From NCBI RefSeq assembly GCF_009914755.1, contig NC_060947.1: a DNA stretch of 64,000 bases; one strand, written 5' to 3'. The notes beneath the pieces were generated by a model. That model saw only the letters and a list, made by a program, of their open reading frames with translations, searched no databases and was not told the origin of the DNA. Source of the DNA: the human T2T-CHM13v2.0 reference genome, Homo sapiens. Below, in pieces: positions 24,010 through 36,799 of the stretch. Each line of letters opens with the position of its first letter. Position 1 is the stretch's first letter. The position numbers and the translations under genes were made by a program.

Positions 24010-25320
24010 AGAGTGATACTGACTCAGACAAGAATCGTCGATGTACGCTAAAACTAGCAGGTTAAATATTTAATGAGGAAATAGATATTTACATAGTCTC
24101 AAAGTATCTCTGCACAAATTACTTATTAATTATAAAGGGAAAAATACTAACTTAGCAGTAGAGAAACCTGGTGAACACTACCTTAACATCACTAATAACC
24201 AGATATCACATGCCTCCCAATGTAAGGCACTGGGGACATGTCGTTGCTGTAGTGTTTGTGCCAAAAATGAACACCCTGAAGGTAGCTGTCCTAGTCCATT
24301 TGGGCTGCAATTACAAAATACCTTAGACTGGGTAATTTATAAACAACAGAAAGGTACTACTCACGGTTCCAGAGACCAGGAAGTCCAAGATCAAGGTGCC
24401 GGCAGATTTAGTGTCTGGTGAGGGCTCACTGTCTGCTTCATAGATGTCTCCTTCTCTCTGTGTCATCACATGGCAGAAGGGATGAACAAGCTCCTTCCGG
24501 CTCTTTTATAAGGGCACTAATTCCATCCATGAGGGTGGTGCCCTCATGACTTAATCACTTCCCCAAAGGCCCCACCTCTTAATATCACCTTGGCGGTTGG
24601 TTAAGTTCCAACCTACGAATTTTGGGGGAAGGCATAAACACTCAGATCATAGAAGTAGTCATGAGGAAACATTGAATGAACCCCAATTGAGGGACATACT
24701 ACCAAATTGCAGGCTTGAACTCTTCTAAAATGTCAAGGTCGGCTGGGCGCCGTGGCTCACGCCTGTAATCCCAGCACTTTGGGAGGCCAAGGCGGGCGGA
24801 TCACCTGAAGTCAGGAGTTCGAGACCAGCCTGGCCAACATGGTGAAACCCCATCTCTACTAAAAATACAAAAATTAGCTGGGCGTGGTGGCACACGCCTG
24901 TAATCCCAGCTACTCAGGAGAATCACTTGAATCTGGGAGGTGGAGGTTGCAGTGAGCTGACATTGCATCACTGCATTCGCATCACTGCATTCCAGCCTTG
25001 GCAACAGAGCGAGACTCTGTATCAAAAAAATAAAACAAATGTCAAGGTCATGAATGCCGAAGTAAGGTAGAGGACCTGGTCTAGATTAAAGGAGACTAAA
25101 GTGACATTACAGTTAAATGCCATGTGTAATCCTAGTCTGGATCCTAGACTAGAAAAACAAAATTGTTATATTGGACATTATTGAGACTATTGGTCATATA
25201 AGAATACTGATTGTAGATTATAGTATTATATCAATGTTAAATGTCTTGATTTTGATGGGTGTATTGTGATAATGTAAAAGAAAGTTTACAAAAATCTATA
25301 TGCTTAGAAAATACACACTG
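24010..25320 (+). mobile_element. L1MC-type 3' fragment interrupted by a MaLR LTR (~24287-24655) and an Alu (~24740-25035)
   Basis: gagaaacctggtgaacactaccttaac; the Alu is flanked by TSD aaatgtcaaggtc. Confidence 0.7.
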
Positions 25321-30230: not shown

Positions 30231-31065
<835 letters not shown>

Positions 31066-32212
31066 TTATTTGAAGGGAAAAGGTAACTGTACAATGGAGA
31101 AACCAGGCGAATAACTTTTTTTTTTTTTTAATATATTCATTTTGTTAAATGCATCTGGTCTGAACCATGGAAGATACAGAAACAGTTTCGAAGAGCATTT
31201 AACACTGGTTCTTTCAACTGTGGACTGAAAAAATATAAAGCATATGGAGACACTGAGTCTGACAGCTACTCAAACAAGTGGGCCAGAGCTGGTTTCAATG
31301 GTGCCAAAAGTACAGGTACTCTACCCCCTGCCAAATGATCCTACCAAAAAAGATGCCAGAAGCACACAGAGGAGATGGGTAACAGACACCTGGAAGGTAC
31401 AAATTCTCCATGATATGACATTTTCAACATACTAGTGGAACCCATATATGTAGGCTCCATTCTGTCTTGAACAATTCCAAAATATTAAAGAAAAACATCA
31501 GGAAGTAGATAGATTACTTAGAGAAAACTTTGAGTTACTTTTAACCAAAGTTATTTCTACTATGCTTTATCACTGACTCAGTAGCTGCCCTCAAAAAAAG
31601 AAATATTTTATATATAATATGTATTTTACTAAAAGTATTTTTTACCCATTTCCAATGGGTTGATTGACCAATCTCACTAATCAGTAAGAGTGCTCAACAT
31701 TTCCCATTTTGGGCCATTTCTATCACTCTCAAATTTTGGTGAATCTGCCCTAAGTTCCCAGCATCACAGCATTCGTGGATCTGAGTAGACATTCCGGAAA
31801 ACACAGAGATGTTCCAATACTCTCTGTTCTTAATTTCATCTAATTAGTTTTAAAATTTATTCTCTACTCACAAAGAAGCATAAATAAAGGTTTCACTCTT
31901 ATGTAAAGACCTGACAAAACATACAATGGTCCTCTGCTGATGTGGAAGCAAGGACAGTTTTCTACGATAGTCTGTTCTTTATAACCTATAACTGTTGTGG
32001 GAAAAAAAGAAAATCCATTTCTTATTGTAATTATTTTTCTTGTTTGAGGTTTCTTTTCCACACCCTGAATCTACAATGACCCAACCACAAGTTTGGGAAC
32101 ATTGCTTCTGAGGCCCATTCTCTGATGAGAAAGTTCAGTCCCACCTGGGGAAAGTACCTGAGTCCCAGCCTTTTCAGCCTAACATTACACCTAATATCTA
32201 AAGTAAGAAATC

Positions 32213-32416
32213 AGGCTAGGTGTGGTGGTACGCACCTGTAATCCCAGCCACTTGGGAGGCTGAGGCAGGAGAATCGCCTGAACCCAGGTGGCAGAGATTG
32301 CAGTGAGCAGAGATCGCACCAGTCACTCCAGCCTGGGCAACACAGTGAGATTCCACCTCAAAAATAAATAAATAAAATAAAATAAAATAAAATAAAATAA
32401 AATAAAATAAAATAAA
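32213..32416 (+). mobile_element. Alu right arm with (TAAAA)n tail inside the retrocopy
   Basis: Alu consensus and pentanucleotide tail. Confidence 0.88.
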
Positions 32417-32616
32417 ACATCCAAGTATCCACCTTGGGTTGCAGGAAAATAGTTAATATTATGCATTTACAAAAAATGTAACTATATAATGTGAAACACC
32501 ATAAAGTCAGATGGCACTGCACGAGGCATTTTTGCTTGTTTTTCTTAGGGAAAAGGAGTTCTACGGAAAATTCTCTCATCCTCCTCTCTCTGCCGCCGAC
32601 TCCTCTATGTCCAAAG

Positions 32617-32918
32617 TTTTTTTTTTCTCCCCCCTGAGAGGGAGTCTCACTCTGTCGCCCGGGCTGGAGTGCAGTGGTGCAATCTTGGTTCACTGCAACC
32701 TCCGCCCCCTTGGCATTCAAGCGATTCTCCTGCCTCAGCCTCCCAAGTAGCTGGGATTGCAGGCACGCACCACCATACCCGGCTAATTTTGCATTTTTAG
32801 TAGAGACGGGGTTTCTCCATGTTGGTCAGGCTGGTCTCAAACTCCCGACCTCAGGTGATCCGCCCACCTCGGCCTCCCAAAGTGCTGGGATTATAGACGT
32901 GAGCCACCACACCCGACC
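32617..32918 (-). mobile_element. Alu inside the retrocopy
   Basis: Full antisense dimer. Confidence 0.9.
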
Positions 32919-33646
32919 TAGGTTTTTGTTTAAAATTGGGCCTTTGTTCTTATTCAGTAAATCTATGTCACAGGATGAGCCAGGATTTAAATATATAATT
33001 TTTTAGTATCTTTCACGTCAAATTAGAAACACATATTTGGAATTTACTGCTGCAGTCTCTACTGTGCTTATCATGGTAGTGGCTGAAACTGGAAGACATT
33101 TTTTTTTAAACCCTGAAGTCATCCATACTTGCTACTTATTTAGTCTTCTTGCTTGGAATGAAAAGTATTCACGAATACCACCACCTAAGCACCTGTTTAA
33201 AATGAAACTCAGCCTTCAGCTTGCAAAATGATGTCTTTATAATTAAGCCAACAGCAGAAGACCCATGCAAGTTGTTTCTTTCTTCCTGGAGAAGTTGGCA
33301 GGATAACTGGAATCCTAGGAGCTCCTCTGTATTGAATTTGCCAAGTCCTGAGTTCAGAATTTTGTTTTTGAGATGAATATAAAAGCACCTAATGGTCAAG
33401 GAAAATTTTCTTCCTGTGATAAGGAACCTTTGCTTTAGTGTAGATGACCACTCCCCTCCGCAAGGTAAGGAGGAAGAATGTTCGGTTAGTTCCTTTCCTC
33501 TGGCCGATCTCTTTTTTTCTTCTCTTCGCACAGTCCAACAGATGCGCTCGGCCTCCCGGGAGCTAGCCCGCCCCCGGCCCAGAGGCCAATTTACAGCCGC
33601 ACGCCTCACTCCACCATCCTCGCAGCTTCTCCGCGGATAACTTCTT

Positions 33647-34110
33647 AACCAAGTGGCCGAACTTAGTACCACCAATGCTGGAACAAAGTGACATCATGTG
33701 CCTTGCATTGTGATGCAACTAAGAATACAACATCTCTTGTGAAGTTGTTTTATCAAAAAATGTTTAACCTAAATCTAACGAGAAAACAGACAAATCCAAC
33801 TTACAGACATTCTGAAAAGCGACGAGCTTGGACTCTTCAAAAATGTCCATGTCATGAAAGACAAAAAGCCAGGGAACGCTTCTAGATTAAATATTAATCA
33901 AAGGAGTTAACTAAACTTGAATTTTGATTGAATCCTGACTTCCCCCTCCAACAAGAAGGAAAAAAAAATACAGCCGTAAAGCTATAAAATTTAAATATGC
34001 TCTGCATATTACAGTGTGGATTATTGCATTGTGGTTAAGTAGGGGTCCATCCTTGTTTTTAAGAGACAGATGCTAAAATGTTAAGGTGAAATGTCACTAT
34101 GTCTGCAAGT
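33647..34110 (+). mobile_element. Old L1 (L1MC/L1ME-type) 3' fragment, host of the retrocopy; its 5' part is at ~31040-31110
   Basis: Similar to the in-window L1 copy at 24120-25140. Confidence 0.65.
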
Positions 34111-34359
34111 AACACTCAGGCAAATTGTGTTAAGGGCTAAAATTCTGAACCCGGTTGAGGAATTTTGTATCAACATCTAGTCAACACTGTCCAGGGACTA
34201 GGCAGAACAAGCAGTTTCCCTTTGCATGGCTGAGAAGCAGGCAGCCTGACCCTCTCCTCTCCGGGTGGCACGAGTAACCCTCAGCACTTAAAAGCAGCTG
34301 CAGGCCTGTGGGGAACGCAGGCTGAGGCTGTGGTTCCACTTCTGCCAGAGGACACACAC

Positions 34360-35000
34360 ATGCACGCATGCTGTATGCACTTTATGGCAGTCCACGGAAA
34401 GCGCAAAAGTGCAAGGGTGAGGCTGCGCCCCTCCCCTAACCCCCACAGGAACATACGACAGCAGCACGTGCTGTCTGGAGCACTTTACAGCAGTCACGTC
34501 TGCACAAGGGCAAACCCACGCCCTTTCACCCCCACAGAACAGCGGCAGCTGCTGTCTGGAGCATTTTACGGCAGTCAGGCAAAGGTGCAAGGATGAGGCC
34601 AGGCCCCTTCACTCTCTCAGAACCGCTGCACGTGCTTGTGGAGCACTTCACAGCAGTCATGCAGAGGCGCAAGGGCGAAGCTACGCCCTTTCATTCCCGC
34701 AGAACATTGGCATGTAGTCTGGAGCACTTTACAGCGGTTACATGAGGCGCGAGGGCAAAGCCACGGCCTCGCACGCCCGCAGAACAGGAGCACGTGCTGT
34801 CTGCAGCACTTTAACGGCATTCAGGCAAAGGCCCGCGGGTGAGACCACTGCCTTTCGCCCCAATAGCACAGCGGCACGTGCCGTCTGGAGCACTTTACGG
34901 TAGTCAACGCGAAGGCGCCAGGGTGAAACCACGCCCTTTCATTCCGACAGAACAGCGGCACGTGCTGTCGGCGCACTTTGTGGCAGCCACGCGAAGGCTC
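34360..35000. repeat. Diverged ~82-bp tandem repeat, 7 copies plus 1 degenerate, upstream of MPC1L
   Basis: Core CAGAACAGCGGCACGTGCTGTCTGGAGCACTTTACGGCAGTCA recurs, with E-box positions at 34465, 34546, 34629, 34711, 34791, 34875, 34959. Confidence 0.9.
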
Positions 35001-35500
35001 GAGGTCGCGAGCGTGTGCCCAGTCAGGGTCGGCTGCGGGTACTCGGCTTTGCGCTCTATTTCGTTGTGGTCTGGCTGTTGATCCGTAGGCACGCCTACGG
35101 CTATTCCATCATGGCGAGGATGGCGGTACTGTGGCGGAAGATGAGAGATAACTTCCAGAGCAAGGAGTTCCGGGAATACGTGAGCAGCACTCACTTCTGG
35201 GGTCCCGCGTTCAGCTGGGGCCTTCCGCTGGCTGCCTTTAAAGACATGAAGGCGTCGCCGGAGATCATCAGTGGCCGCATGACAACAGCGCTCATCTTGT
35301 ACTCGGCGATCTTCATGCGCTTCGCCTACCGCGTACAGCCTCGAAACCTGCTGCTGATGGCGTGCCACTGTACCAACGTGATGGCGCAGAGTGTGCAGGC
35401 CAGTCGCTACCTACTCTACTACTACGGCGGCGGCGGCGCCGAGGCTAAAGCCCGCGACCCTCCGGCTACCGCCGCCGCTGCCACCAGCCCGGGTTCCCAG
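34440..35500. promoter_or_regulatory. CpG-rich island over the MPC1L promoter and CDS
   Basis: High GC and many CpGs against AT-rich, CpG-poor flanks. Confidence 0.75.
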
Positions 35501-35521
35501 CCCCCGAAACAAGCTTCTTAA
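35111..35521 (+). CDS. MPC1L: Mitochondrial pyruvate carrier 1-like protein, intronless (136 aa)
   Basis: atcATGG start; [61 protein letters not shown]... with MPC1-family motifs [30 protein letters not shown]. Confidence 0.96.
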
Positions 35522-35654
35522 GAACTGAGAGGGCCTGATCTCATCTCTGCAGGTCACAAGCACTGAACTGCCATTCCTCCTGAAAAAAGACCAATGAAGA
35601 CCTCGGTTTTGACTCTAAAACAGTGCGAATCTGACTTAAACCTGCAGTTTGATT

Positions 35655-35660
35655 AATAAA
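35655..35660 (+). terminator. MPC1L polyadenylation signal
   Basis: AATAAA ~135 nt after the stop, T/GT-rich downstream. Confidence 0.75.
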
Positions 35661-36799
35661 GAAATACAAAGTAACATTGAACCGAAGTTGAGTGTTGCCT
35701 TTTTTGTAAACTGAAAATGTTTTTTAGAAGGGGAGGGTGGATTAGCTGGTCTTTCTCTTCACAGGACCTGCAACTCAAGATAGTTTATATGGGGGAGGAA
35801 GACTTTGAATGAAAAGCACTTCACAGTATTCACTAACTCGTAGCTTTTTTGTTTTTTTTTTAAAGCTCTCTTGGGAACGTATTTCTGTTACTTGTTTTGG
35901 ATGTCCAGAGCGAACAGGGTTGCTTAGTATCACACATGACTCACAGCTTGGTGCAGTCACAAATCTGTATATCAAAAAAAGTCTGGGGGCTCTTTCTACT
36001 GAGGGAAATGTTTCGAAGTGGGTTTTAAATGAATGTCGTGAGGTACAGTGTAGCCTCAAGAGAACCTAGGATCTCTTGGCGACGGAGAGCAATTATAGAA
36101 TCTGCCATGGAGACAGGATAAACAATTCTGAGGACAATTGCCATCAACCCTGGATTCTAGGTAAATAGGTAAAACGACAAAATCGTTCTTTCCTCCTTTA
36201 GTTATCCTTAAAAACGGGGGAAATGGCAGTTTGCAAAACTGGTTACCCATCAACTCTGTTGAATGCTAGCTAGAGCTGGGGGTGAGGGGTCAGTGGTCAA
36301 CAGCGGCAGCTCAGAGTATTCCCCTAGGAATCTTGGGGGTTCCTACGGATTCTTAAACCACAGAGCCGAGAAAAGGGAAACGAGAAGGGTGGGGTGGTGG
36401 GGCAGTAGGCTAAGGCCATTACCTACATAGCAGAGGCTGCCCTCTACGATTTGACCCAAAAATTTCCCCTGTCCCTGCCTCTGAAGGATGCGGAAAGTTC
36501 CAGAGTGTTTACTGGTGAACCCCAAAGTAGGTGTTTAGAAGTGTTTGAACCCTGCTTTAGATAGAGGTTTCAAATGCAAAGAAATTTAAAAGCACTATCA
36601 AAGATTCTGAAGACGTTAGTTCTTGGACAAAACAGGCACATTAGTGGAATTCTAGAAGATTCCCCTTTATCTTCTCTGGCATTAAAGCAGAAGTCCTCTT
36701 TGTGGGCAGTCTGTGTCACAGTTTCACGAAATTCTGCATGTGGGGACGGGGTTAGCGGGGGAGTGGGGGGTAAGGGGGTGGGAAACGAACTATGGGGGT

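What the first reader, a model, noticed from the sequence alone, without database searches (positions are those of the whole stretch)
31107..33646. Apparently 5'-complete processed retrocopy of the lncRNA OIP5-AS1 (Cyrano)
Seen: a T14 tract (31116-31129), a ~14-bp TSD (GCGAATAACTTTTT at 31107, GCGGATAACTTCTT at 33633) followed by AA (L1 endonuclease TT/AA signature), and a GC-rich 5' end on the - strand. Joining the flanks restores a continuous old L1 similar to the in-window copy at 24120-24190. From memory: 33605-33624(-) TGCGAGGATGGTGGAGTGAG and 33487-33506(+) TAGTTCCTTTCCTCTGGCCG differ by 3 and 1 nt from widely used OIP5-AS1 RT-qPCR primers (TGCGAAGATGGCGGAGTAAG / TAGTTCCTCTCCTCTGGCCG) and span only 138 bp here. 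Inference: L1-mediated retroposition of a spliced short lncRNA isoform. Retrocopies of lncRNAs are rarely annotated because they have no ORF, and this one could confound OIP5-AS1 qPCR, probes or read mapping.
Basis: partly seen in the sequence, partly recalled or inferred. Interest (0 to 1): 0.85.

Follow-up and report, generated by a model that had tools for sequence, protein, structure and literature searches.

The report
Processed retrocopy of lncRNA OIP5-AS1
This stretch of the human X chromosome is an old, intron-less, L1-made copy of the chr15 non-coding RNA OIP5-AS1 (Cyrano): an ordinary kind of genomic fossil that seems to preserve a splice form the parent gene no longer makes with standard splice signals.

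Summary
The observation and the reading both hold. Window 31130-33631 (minus strand) aligns in one collinear block to four spliced exons of a chr15 locus: 2400 aligned bases, 93.4% identical. That locus matches the published OIP5-AS1 primer pair exactly and carries a long miR-7-complementary site that I recall as the Cyrano hallmark.

The copy has a 14-T tail, 12/14-matching 14-bp target-site duplications, a TCTT/AA nick site and one extra 5' G. Removing it restores an ancient dispersed repeat. Both internal Alus are inherited from the parent's last exon.

New here:
- At least nine other loci hold OIP5-AS1 retrocopies.
- The chrX copy uses an exon-2 donor that a solo LTR has since split in the parent. 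It also uses an internal last-exon acceptor that now reads CAA in the parent but CAG in three older copies. It is therefore probably a fossil isoform, older than the chr1 and chr2 copies.
- It ends about 250 nt before the miR-7 site, so it is not a Cyrano-like miR-7 trigger.
- The chr2 copy (0+1 primer mismatches, 138 bp) is a worse qPCR confounder than chrX (3+1).

Ordinary in kind, with modest interest. I could not test primate empty sites or expression.

The parts
31060..31106 (.). Left flank: part of an ancient dispersed repeat that was interrupted by the insertion
   Evidence: In one search, 5 of 5 genomic relatives align from here straight across the joined empty site.
31107..31120 (.). 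Target-site duplication, copy next to the poly(A) tail
   Evidence: It matches 33633-33646 at 12 of 14 positions.
31116..31129 (-). Poly(A) tail, seen as T14 on the + strand. The first five T's can also be read as part of the duplication.
   Evidence: It is not templated by the parent, which reads CCAGCTG after the shared 3' end.
31130..33337 (-). Copy of the parent's last exon from an internal acceptor to a proximal poly(A) site (chr15 39104355-39106479)
   Evidence: one continuous alignment.
32214..32417 (+). Alu right-arm-like piece plus an (AAAAT)n run, antisense in the RNA. It is inherited from the parent exon, not a later insertion.
   Evidence: The same element sits at the same place in chr15, and they are 85.9% identical.
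32617..32918 (-). Full-length Alu, sense in the RNA, inherited from the parent exon
   Evidence: with 87.3% identity to the parent's Alu. It is absent from the older chr12b copy.
33090..33097 (-). 8-nt miR-7 seed match, the only miR-7-type site in the copy
   Evidence: The motif is recalled from memory.
33338..33427 (-). Exon 3 (chr15 39092190-39092279)
   Evidence: with 89 of 90 bases identical.
33428..33524 (-). Exon 2, ending at the old donor (chr15 39091404-39091499). It holds the reverse-primer site at 33487-33506.
33525..33631 (-). Exon 1 (chr15 39090184-39090289). It holds the forward-primer site at 33605-33624.
   Evidence: with 95 of 106 bases identical.
33632..33632 (-). One extra G at the 5' end that is not in the parent (T there). 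Inferred to come from reverse transcription of the cap.
   Evidence: The cap origin rests on general knowledge of full-length retrocopies.
33633..33648 (.). Second target-site duplication copy (33633-33646), followed by AA. On the + strand this reads TCTT/AA, the L1 endonuclease type of nick site.
   Evidence: The TTTT/AA consensus is recalled.
33647..33900 (.). Right flank: continuation of the same ancient dispersed repeat
   Evidence: One search gave 39 other genomic matches at 67-84% identity, from 106 candidates.

Best explanation
A capped, spliced, polyadenylated transcript of the chr15 lncRNA gene OIP5-AS1 (Cyrano) was reverse-transcribed and inserted by the L1 machinery. This was target-primed reverse transcription at a TCTT/AA nick on the + strand, into an old interspersed repeat between ATP6AP2 and MPC1L. 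By divergence the event is roughly 25-35 million years old.

The copy is 5'-complete and 2.5 kb long. It is made of exon 1, exon 2 (old short form), exon 3 and about 2.1 kb of the last exon, including two Alus that were already exonised in the parent.

The source isoform differs from today's in two ways.
- It used an exon-2 donor (CAAAG|GT) that a 366-bp solo LTR has since split in the parent.
- It used an internal acceptor 150 nt into the last exon. That acceptor reads CAG in three older retrocopies and CAA in the parent today.

The copy was polyadenylated about 250 nt upstream of the long miR-7 site, so it lacks that element. It brought no promoter with it and is most likely an inert processed pseudogene.

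Shown: the intron-less collinearity, the tail, the duplications, the parent's identity and the shared Alus. Inferred: the L1 mechanism, the age, the order of events and the inertness.
For: Collinear, intron-less match:
- One search gives a single alignment, spliced parent 1-2416 against window 33631-31130.
- Searches give 2400 aligned bases, 159 mismatches and 120 gap columns of 2520.
- One search shows the same sequence in chr15 as four blocks separated by 1.1, 0.7 and 12 kb.

Parent identity:
- Both published primers match chr15 exactly, in exons 1 and 2.
- 27 papers hold the forward primer, and I read one passage with the pair.
- A near-full miR-7-complementary site lies at chr15 39106727-39106764 (the motif is recalled).

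Retroposition marks:
- A14 tail that the parent does not template.
- 12 of 14 matching duplications and the TCTT/AA site.
- 5 of 5 repeat relatives span the joined empty site.

5' completeness: the chr2, chr1, chr8, chr5a and chr10 copies start within about 10 nt of the same base.

Fossil isoform:
- The parent carries a TG...CA element of 366 bp flanked by the 5-bp repeat CAAAG, exactly at the old donor.
- That element has more than 3000 candidate relatives. The 39 scored are 89-92% identical, most over the full length, and four same-strand pairs lie 2-9 kb apart.
- The chr5a copy reads through the site without the element. The chr1 and chr2 copies carry its first 43 nt and use its internal donor. 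The chrX and chr12b copies use the old donor.
- At the acceptor site, chr5a/b, chr12a and chr12b read CAG, the parent and chr2 read CAA, and chr1 reads GAA. The chr10 and chrX copies start right after it.

Order of events:
- K2P distance to the parent is 0.0675 for chrX, 0.0537 for chr1 and 0.0547 for chr2.
- Polarised sites: 11 are shared by all four sequences, 1 by parent+chr1+chr2, 2 by parent+chr2, and none conflict.
Against: - No canonical AATAAA lies before the chrX poly(A) site. The copy has AATGAA and AATATA there, and the parent has AATGGA.
- No other retrocopy ends at that site. The chr1 copy runs on and the chr2 copy ends earlier.
- The order 'chrX before the LTR and before the CAG>CAA change' rests on parsimony. 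It has few polarised sites behind it (1 plus the two structural characters) and no outgroup genome.
- The genome is a single haplotype, so CAA could be an allele.
- After the LTR insertion a donor CAAA|GT exists in the parent. It would give the chrX junction if the copy later gained one G.
- The LTR family's copies differ from each other by 8-11%, more than chrX differs from its parent. This does not conflict with the order only if source elements were already diverse.
- Nothing here bears on transcription of the copy.
Confidence: 0.95

Rival explanations
1. The chrX copy came from a modern-type transcript (LTR-extended exon 2, last exon starting at the upstream acceptor). It later lost the 43-nt and 150-nt segments by two deletions, so it is not a fossil isoform.
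For: Both junctions sit in short repeats that could favour slippage (CAA at exon 3/4, and G/GT at exon 2/3). The copy has many other indels: 120 gap columns.
Against: Two deletions would each have to start exactly at an exon end. The older chr12b copy has the same exon 2/3 junction and the older chr10 copy the same exon 3/4 junction. Three older copies read CAG behind a long pyrimidine tract at the internal site.
Confidence: 0.05
2. The stretch is a DNA-level (segmental) duplicate of the chr15 gene or of another retrocopy, not a fresh retroposition from the parent's RNA.
For: Two chr5 copies do look like a DNA duplication of one retrocopy: they have the same structure and similar identity.
Against: - No intron sequence is present.
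- The poly(A) tail is not templated, and duplications sit exactly at the transcript's ends.
- The parent is the closest relative: 93.6% identity over the last exon, against 93.0% for chr1 and 92.1% for chr2.
- The chr10 copy, which shares the exon 3/4 junction, is only about 81% identical.
- No homology continues beyond the duplications.
Confidence: 0.01
3. The copy is not inert. It is transcribed from the minus strand, divergently from MPC1L 1.3 kb away, and acts as an RNA in its own right, for example by binding the same proteins or microRNAs as the 5' part of OIP5-AS1.
For: - CpGs are fairly well kept in the exon-1 part: 7 of 10 parental CpGs kept, and 9 CpGs present.
- Exon 3 is 89 of 90 bases identical.
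- One miR-7 seed match is kept.
- MPC1L's start lies head-to-head with it (hub table).
Against: - The copy starts at the parent's transcription start, so it brought no upstream promoter.
- Overall divergence (6.6% substitutions plus 120 gap columns) is what neutral decay gives.
- RefSeq annotates no gene here (hub table).
- It lacks the long miR-7 site.
- No expression data could be consulted.
Confidence: 0.08

Closest known systems
L1-mediated processed pseudogenes (retrocopies) of polyadenylated RNAs
   Same: Intron-less, with a poly(A) tail, 14-bp target-site duplications and a TT/AA-type nick site. It is full length to the transcription start, has an extra 5' G and carries no promoter.
   Different: The parent is a non-coding RNA. 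There is no reading frame by which pseudogene pipelines would find it or judge it broken, and RefSeq lists nothing here (hub table).
The other OIP5-AS1 retrocopies in this genome: chr2 172.65 Mb, chr1 240.17 Mb, chr5 (two), chr8, chr10, chr12 (two), and a chr19 fragment
   Same: Same parent and the same 5' end within about 10 nt.
   Different: - The chr2 copy matches what I recall as today's short RefSeq form. It has the LTR-extended exon 2, the upstream acceptor, and an AATAAA site with an A22 tail.
- The chr1 copy is from a roughly 6.7-kb form and keeps the long miR-7 site.
- The chrX copy is older than both. It shares its exon 2/3 junction with chr12b and its exon 3/4 junction with chr10.
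OIP5-AS1/Cyrano itself
   Same: 93.4% identical over 2400 aligned bases of a 2.4-kb spliced form.
   Different: It lacks the promoter, and it lacks the conserved region with the long miR-7 site, which lies about 250 nt beyond its 3' end. The main isoform is reported as more than 8 kb (passage of PMC8764876).
MPC1L, the neighbouring single-exon gene (34973-35681, + strand)
   Same: Also an intron-less gene on the X, 1.3 kb away and head-to-head (hub table). That it is a retrogene of MPC1 is recalled, not tested.
   Different: MPC1L kept an open reading frame and is an annotated gene. The OIP5-AS1 copy has no such evidence.

Membership tests
L1-mediated processed retrocopy | Collinear match to the spliced parent, with every intron missing | tested here: met
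   One alignment covers 2416 parent bases. The parent has three introns at the junctions.
L1-mediated processed retrocopy | Non-templated poly(A) tail at the 3' end | tested here: met
   A14. The parent reads CCAGCTG there.
L1-mediated processed retrocopy | Target-site duplications directly abutting both ends, and an empty site that is continuous when the insert is removed | tested here: met
   The duplications match at 12 of 14 positions. 5 of 5 repeat relatives span the joined site.
L1-mediated processed retrocopy | Nick site of the TTTT/AA type | tested here: met
   TCTT/AA on the + strand at 33643-33648. The consensus is recalled.
L1-mediated processed retrocopy | Empty orthologous site in outgroup species | not testable with these tools
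   No primate genomes are held.
Derived from OIP5-AS1 (Cyrano) | The parent locus is the gene that the literature calls OIP5-AS1 | tested here: met
   Both primers match chr15 39090191-210 and 39091421-440 exactly. 27 papers hold the forward primer, and I read one passage with the pair. No gene table for chr15 was on hand. The hg38 position of the gene is recalled only.
Derived from OIP5-AS1 (Cyrano) | The parent carries the long miR-7-complementary site of Cyrano | tested here: met
   at chr15 39106727-39106764. The motif is recalled.
Cyrano-like trigger of miR-7 decay | The copy itself holds the long miR-7-complementary site | tested here: not met
   The copy has only an 8-nt seed match at 33090-33097 and ends about 250 nt before the site.
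Old L1 as the host repeat of the insertion | The flanks match an L1 family consensus | not testable with these tools
   It is shown to be an old dispersed repeat: 39 other matches at 67-84% identity. The family name was not tested, and the in-window likeness is weak.
HERV-H type solo LTR (the element that split the parent's exon-2 donor) | TG...CA ends, a short target duplication, many full-length copies, and paired copies around proviruses | tested here: met
   The family name (LTR7) is from recall only. No repeat library was searched.

The most novel reading that the evidence does not exclude
The chrX copy is a dated molecular fossil of an extinct Cyrano isoform. With the other nine or more loci it forms a time series that records how the lncRNA's exons changed in primates:
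- Alu exonisation in the last exon, after the chr12b copy and before chrX.
- Then a solo-LTR insertion that replaced the exon-2 donor, and loss of an internal acceptor, both after chrX and before chr1 and chr2.

Retrocopies would then give an outgroup-free way to reconstruct the isoform history of a conserved lncRNA. One of them, on chr1, still carries the long miR-7 site.
Probability: 0.7. Interest if true: 0.45.

Novelty: new member of a known kind. Interest (0 to 1): 0.35.

Why it matters
Practical point. A primer pair that is assumed safe because it spans an intron gives near-identical products from genomic DNA. The forward primer is held by 27 papers in the library.
- The cDNA product is 136 bp.
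- The chr2 copy gives 138 bp with 0+1 mismatches.
- The chrX copy gives 138 bp with 3+1 mismatches.

OIP5-AS1 qPCR without DNase treatment or no-RT controls can therefore read DNA.

Short reads can also be misplaced. 105 of 2367 parental 50-mers are identical in chrX and 135 in chr2.

Evolutionary point. Retrocopies of lncRNAs are rarely catalogued. A 2025 review says the field concentrates on protein-coding parents (passage of PMC12747553). This family shows that such copies can date changes in a lncRNA's exon structure.

Otherwise the object is an ordinary processed pseudogene.

Tried and rejected
- A fuzzy-pattern script timed out and printed nothing. I replaced it with local alignments.
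- Rfam gave 0 matches in 30900-35800 at gathering scores.
- The in-window L1 likeness at 24120-24190 did not reach blastn significance. It was only marginal by Smith-Waterman.

Literature searches:
- 'OIP5-AS1' with 'retrocop' found 0 papers.
- Six phrases for lncRNA retrocopies, requiring two of them, found 0 papers.
- 'OIP5-AS1' with 'processed pseudogene' found 11 papers. The one I opened uses the phrase only in a list of biotypes. I did not open the other ten.
- A further phrase set found one general review.
- Another phrase set found four papers. I read only two passages of one of them, PMC12747553.
- The OIP5-AS1 review PMC8764876 has 0 occurrences of 'pseudogene' or 'retrotranspos' (term search only).
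- Subscription journals and browser tracks (UCSC retro-genes, GENCODE) could not be searched, so the copy may be listed there.

Explanations considered and rejected:
- A non-canonical TG-AG intron for exon 2/3. The LTR insertion explains the junction instead.
- Descent from the chr10 copy, which is only about 81% identical.

The chr12b row (68% identity) is an artefact of unrelated inserted sequence in that alignment. I did not use it.

Full report
**What is in the sequence.**
- A run of 14 T lies at 31116-31129.
- A 14-bp word at 31107-31120 recurs at 33633-33646 with 12 of 14 matches, and the second copy is followed by AA.
- The minus-strand end next to the second copy is GC-rich: 53.6% GC and 12 CpG in the first 250 nt.
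- The two primer-like sites lie at 33605-33624(-) with 3 mismatches and 33487-33506(+) with 1 mismatch, spanning 138 bp.
- The forward primer occurs in 27 papers of the library, all 20 listed being on OIP5-AS1 or linc-OIP5. In PMC6068457 I read the passage that gives both primers as the OIP5-AS1 pair.

**The parent.** The window's own genome can be searched. The window is contig C23 39990001-40054000. C15 has the length I recall for T2T chr15.
- Searches with the three non-Alu parts of the insert found a chr15 locus.
- Blastn against the fetched chr15 DNA gave four collinear blocks:

| Window | chr15 | Identity |
|---|---|---|
| 33631-33526 | 39090184-39090288 | 89.6% |
| 33524-33428 | 39091404-39091499 | 92.8% |
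| 33429-33338 | 39092188-39092279 | 98.9% |
| 33340-31130 | 39104352-39106479 | 88.7% (2229 columns) |

- Against the four exons joined in a script, the insert aligns as one block: parent 1-2416 to window 33631-31130.
- A global alignment has 2400 aligned bases, 159 mismatches (93.4% identity) and 120 gap columns of 2520.
- Both published primers match chr15 exactly, the forward in exon 1 and the reverse in exon 2, 1250 bp apart in the genome.
- At chr15 39106727-39106764 lies a site complementary to nearly all of miR-7. I recall this as the hallmark of Cyrano.
- The parent is therefore OIP5-AS1. No gene table for chr15 was available, so the primers and the miR-7 site carry the naming.

**Marks of retroposition.**
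- The A14 tail is not templated. The parent continues with CCAGCTG.
- The duplications abut the first and last aligned bases. One extra G at the 5' end (33632) has a T in the parent.
- On the + strand the pre-insertion site reads ...TCTT/AA..., the L1 endonuclease type of nick site (consensus recalled).
- The right flank is an old dispersed repeat, with 39 other matches at 67-84% identity from 106 candidates.
- I fetched five of those relatives that reach the start of the flank. All five align without a gap across the joined flanks, with one duplication copy removed.
There was no blastn hit, and the Smith-Waterman score was 18.5 against 11.2+-1.5 for shuffles.
- I could not test whether the repeat is an L1.

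**The Alus.** The last-exon block runs straight through both Alus. The full Alu at 32617-32918 is 87.3% identical to the parent's and the right-arm-like piece at 32214-32417 is 85.9% identical. Both were therefore already part of the parent's exon when the RNA was copied. The older chr12b copy lacks the full Alu.

**A family of copies.** Searches found further copies:
- chr1 (about 91% identical to the parent over 2184 columns)
- chr2 (91.6% over 1484)
- chr5, twice, with the same structure, so probably one copy later duplicated
- chr8
- chr10
- chr12, twice
- a fragment on chr19

The search scores only its best candidates, so this count is a lower bound. Five of these copies begin within about 10 nt of the chrX copy's first base. 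This supports the claim that the chrX copy reaches the transcription start.

**The isoform is not today's.** Two junctions looked non-canonical against the parent. Both are explained by later changes in the parent.

1. Exon 2 ends CAAAG in the chrX, chr12b, chr8 and chr5a copies, but the parent continues TGTTAGG.
   - One search shows why. A 366-bp element with TG...CA ends, flanked by a 5-bp repeat CAAAG, sits exactly there, and behind it the old donor CAAAG|GTCTTAAG is intact.
   - The element has more than 3000 candidate relatives. The 39 scored are 89-92% identical, most over the full length, and four same-strand pairs lie 2-9 kb apart, as proviral LTRs do.
   - By recall it looks like an antisense HERV-H LTR.
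   - The chr5a copy reads through the site without the element. The chr1 and chr2 copies contain its first 43 nt and use its internal donor TTTGT|GTGAGT.
2. The other copies start the last exon at chr15 39104205, behind CTAG. The chrX and chr10 copies start 150 nt further in.
   - A long pyrimidine tract precedes that point.
   - The tract ends in CAG in chr5a/b, chr12a and chr12b, in CAA in the parent and chr2, and in GAA in chr1.

The simplest order is: old copies, then chrX, then the LTR insertion and the G>A change, then chr1, then chr2. Two other lines agree with this order.
- K2P distances to the parent over the last exon are 0.0675 (chrX), 0.0537 (chr1) and 0.0547 (chr2).
- Among sites polarised by the old copies, 11 derived states are shared by the parent and all three young copies, 1 by parent+chr1+chr2, 2 by parent+chr2, and none conflict.

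This evidence is thin in sites, and there is no outgroup genome.

**The 3' end.** No AATAAA precedes the chrX poly(A) site. The copy has AATGAA where the parent and chr1 have AATGGA. The site is used by this copy alone.
- The chr2 copy ends 690 nt earlier, behind AATAAA, with an A22 tail.
- The chr1 copy runs on to chr15 39110654, behind AATAAA.

**Age.** A K2P distance of 0.0675 (0.052 without CpG columns), at about 1e-9 substitutions per site per year on each lineage (a recalled rate), gives roughly 25-35 million years. That is near the base of the catarrhines. I could not check this against primate genomes.

**What it does.** The copy brought no promoter, has decayed about as neutral DNA does, has no RefSeq gene (hub table) and gave no Rfam match. 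It ends about 250 nt before the long miR-7 site and keeps only one 8-nt seed match, at 33090-33097. I judge it an inert processed pseudogene. Transcription from the minus strand, divergent from MPC1L 1.3 kb away, cannot be excluded with these tools.

**Consequences.**
- The cDNA amplicon of the published pair is 136 bp. The chrX copy gives 138 bp with 3+1 mismatches and the chr2 copy 138 bp with 0+1. The chr2 copy is therefore the greater hazard for qPCR on RNA that carries DNA.
- Of 2367 parental 50-mers, 105 are identical in chrX, 80 in chr1 and 135 in chr2. The longest exact run shared with chrX is 93 nt.

**Novelty.** I found no paper that names an OIP5-AS1 retrocopy.
- The dedicated review has no occurrence of 'pseudogene'.
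- Ten of the eleven papers were not opened, and genome-browser tracks could not be searched.
- The kind of object is well known. This instance, and the use of the family as a record of isoform change, seem unreported.

Noticed in passing
L013/L029 = G000 C1:240167224-240175430 (outside the window): A long OIP5-AS1 retrocopy on chr1, about 93% identical to the parent.
- It covers chr15 39104205-39110654, with AATAAA at its end and a 9-bp target duplication.
- A roughly 1.5-kb later insertion interrupts it at the exon 3/4 junction.
- The long miR-7-complementary site is kept letter for letter over the 38 nt compared.
   Followed up: partly
L014 = G000 C2:172651346-172653308 (outside the window): A chr2 retrocopy with the LTR-extended exon 2, the upstream acceptor, an AATAAA site and an A22 tail. 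It matches the published forward primer exactly and the reverse primer with 1 mismatch, giving a 138-bp product.
   Followed up: partly
L011 2200-2565 = G000 C15:39091500-39091865 (parent gene): A 366-bp solo LTR (TG...CA ends, 5-bp duplication CAAAG) sits in OIP5-AS1 exon 2. It supplies the splice donor used by the two young retrocopies. It looks like an antisense HERV-H LTR by recall only.
   Followed up: partly
window 34458-34998: A tandem array with a period of 84 bp (or 163 bp), 6.6 copies at about 70% identity. It runs up to and across the annotated start of MPC1L (34973).
   Followed up: no
window 30701-31023: An Alu with a 31-base A tail (30986-31016) lies 84 bp from the retrocopy's left duplication, inside the same old repeat. 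It is a separate insertion.
   Followed up: no
window 32182-32206, 32126-32138 and 31277-31287: Stretches of 25, 13 and 11 nt present in the chrX copy but absent from the parent. Whether they are parental deletions or insertions in the copy was not resolved.
   Followed up: no
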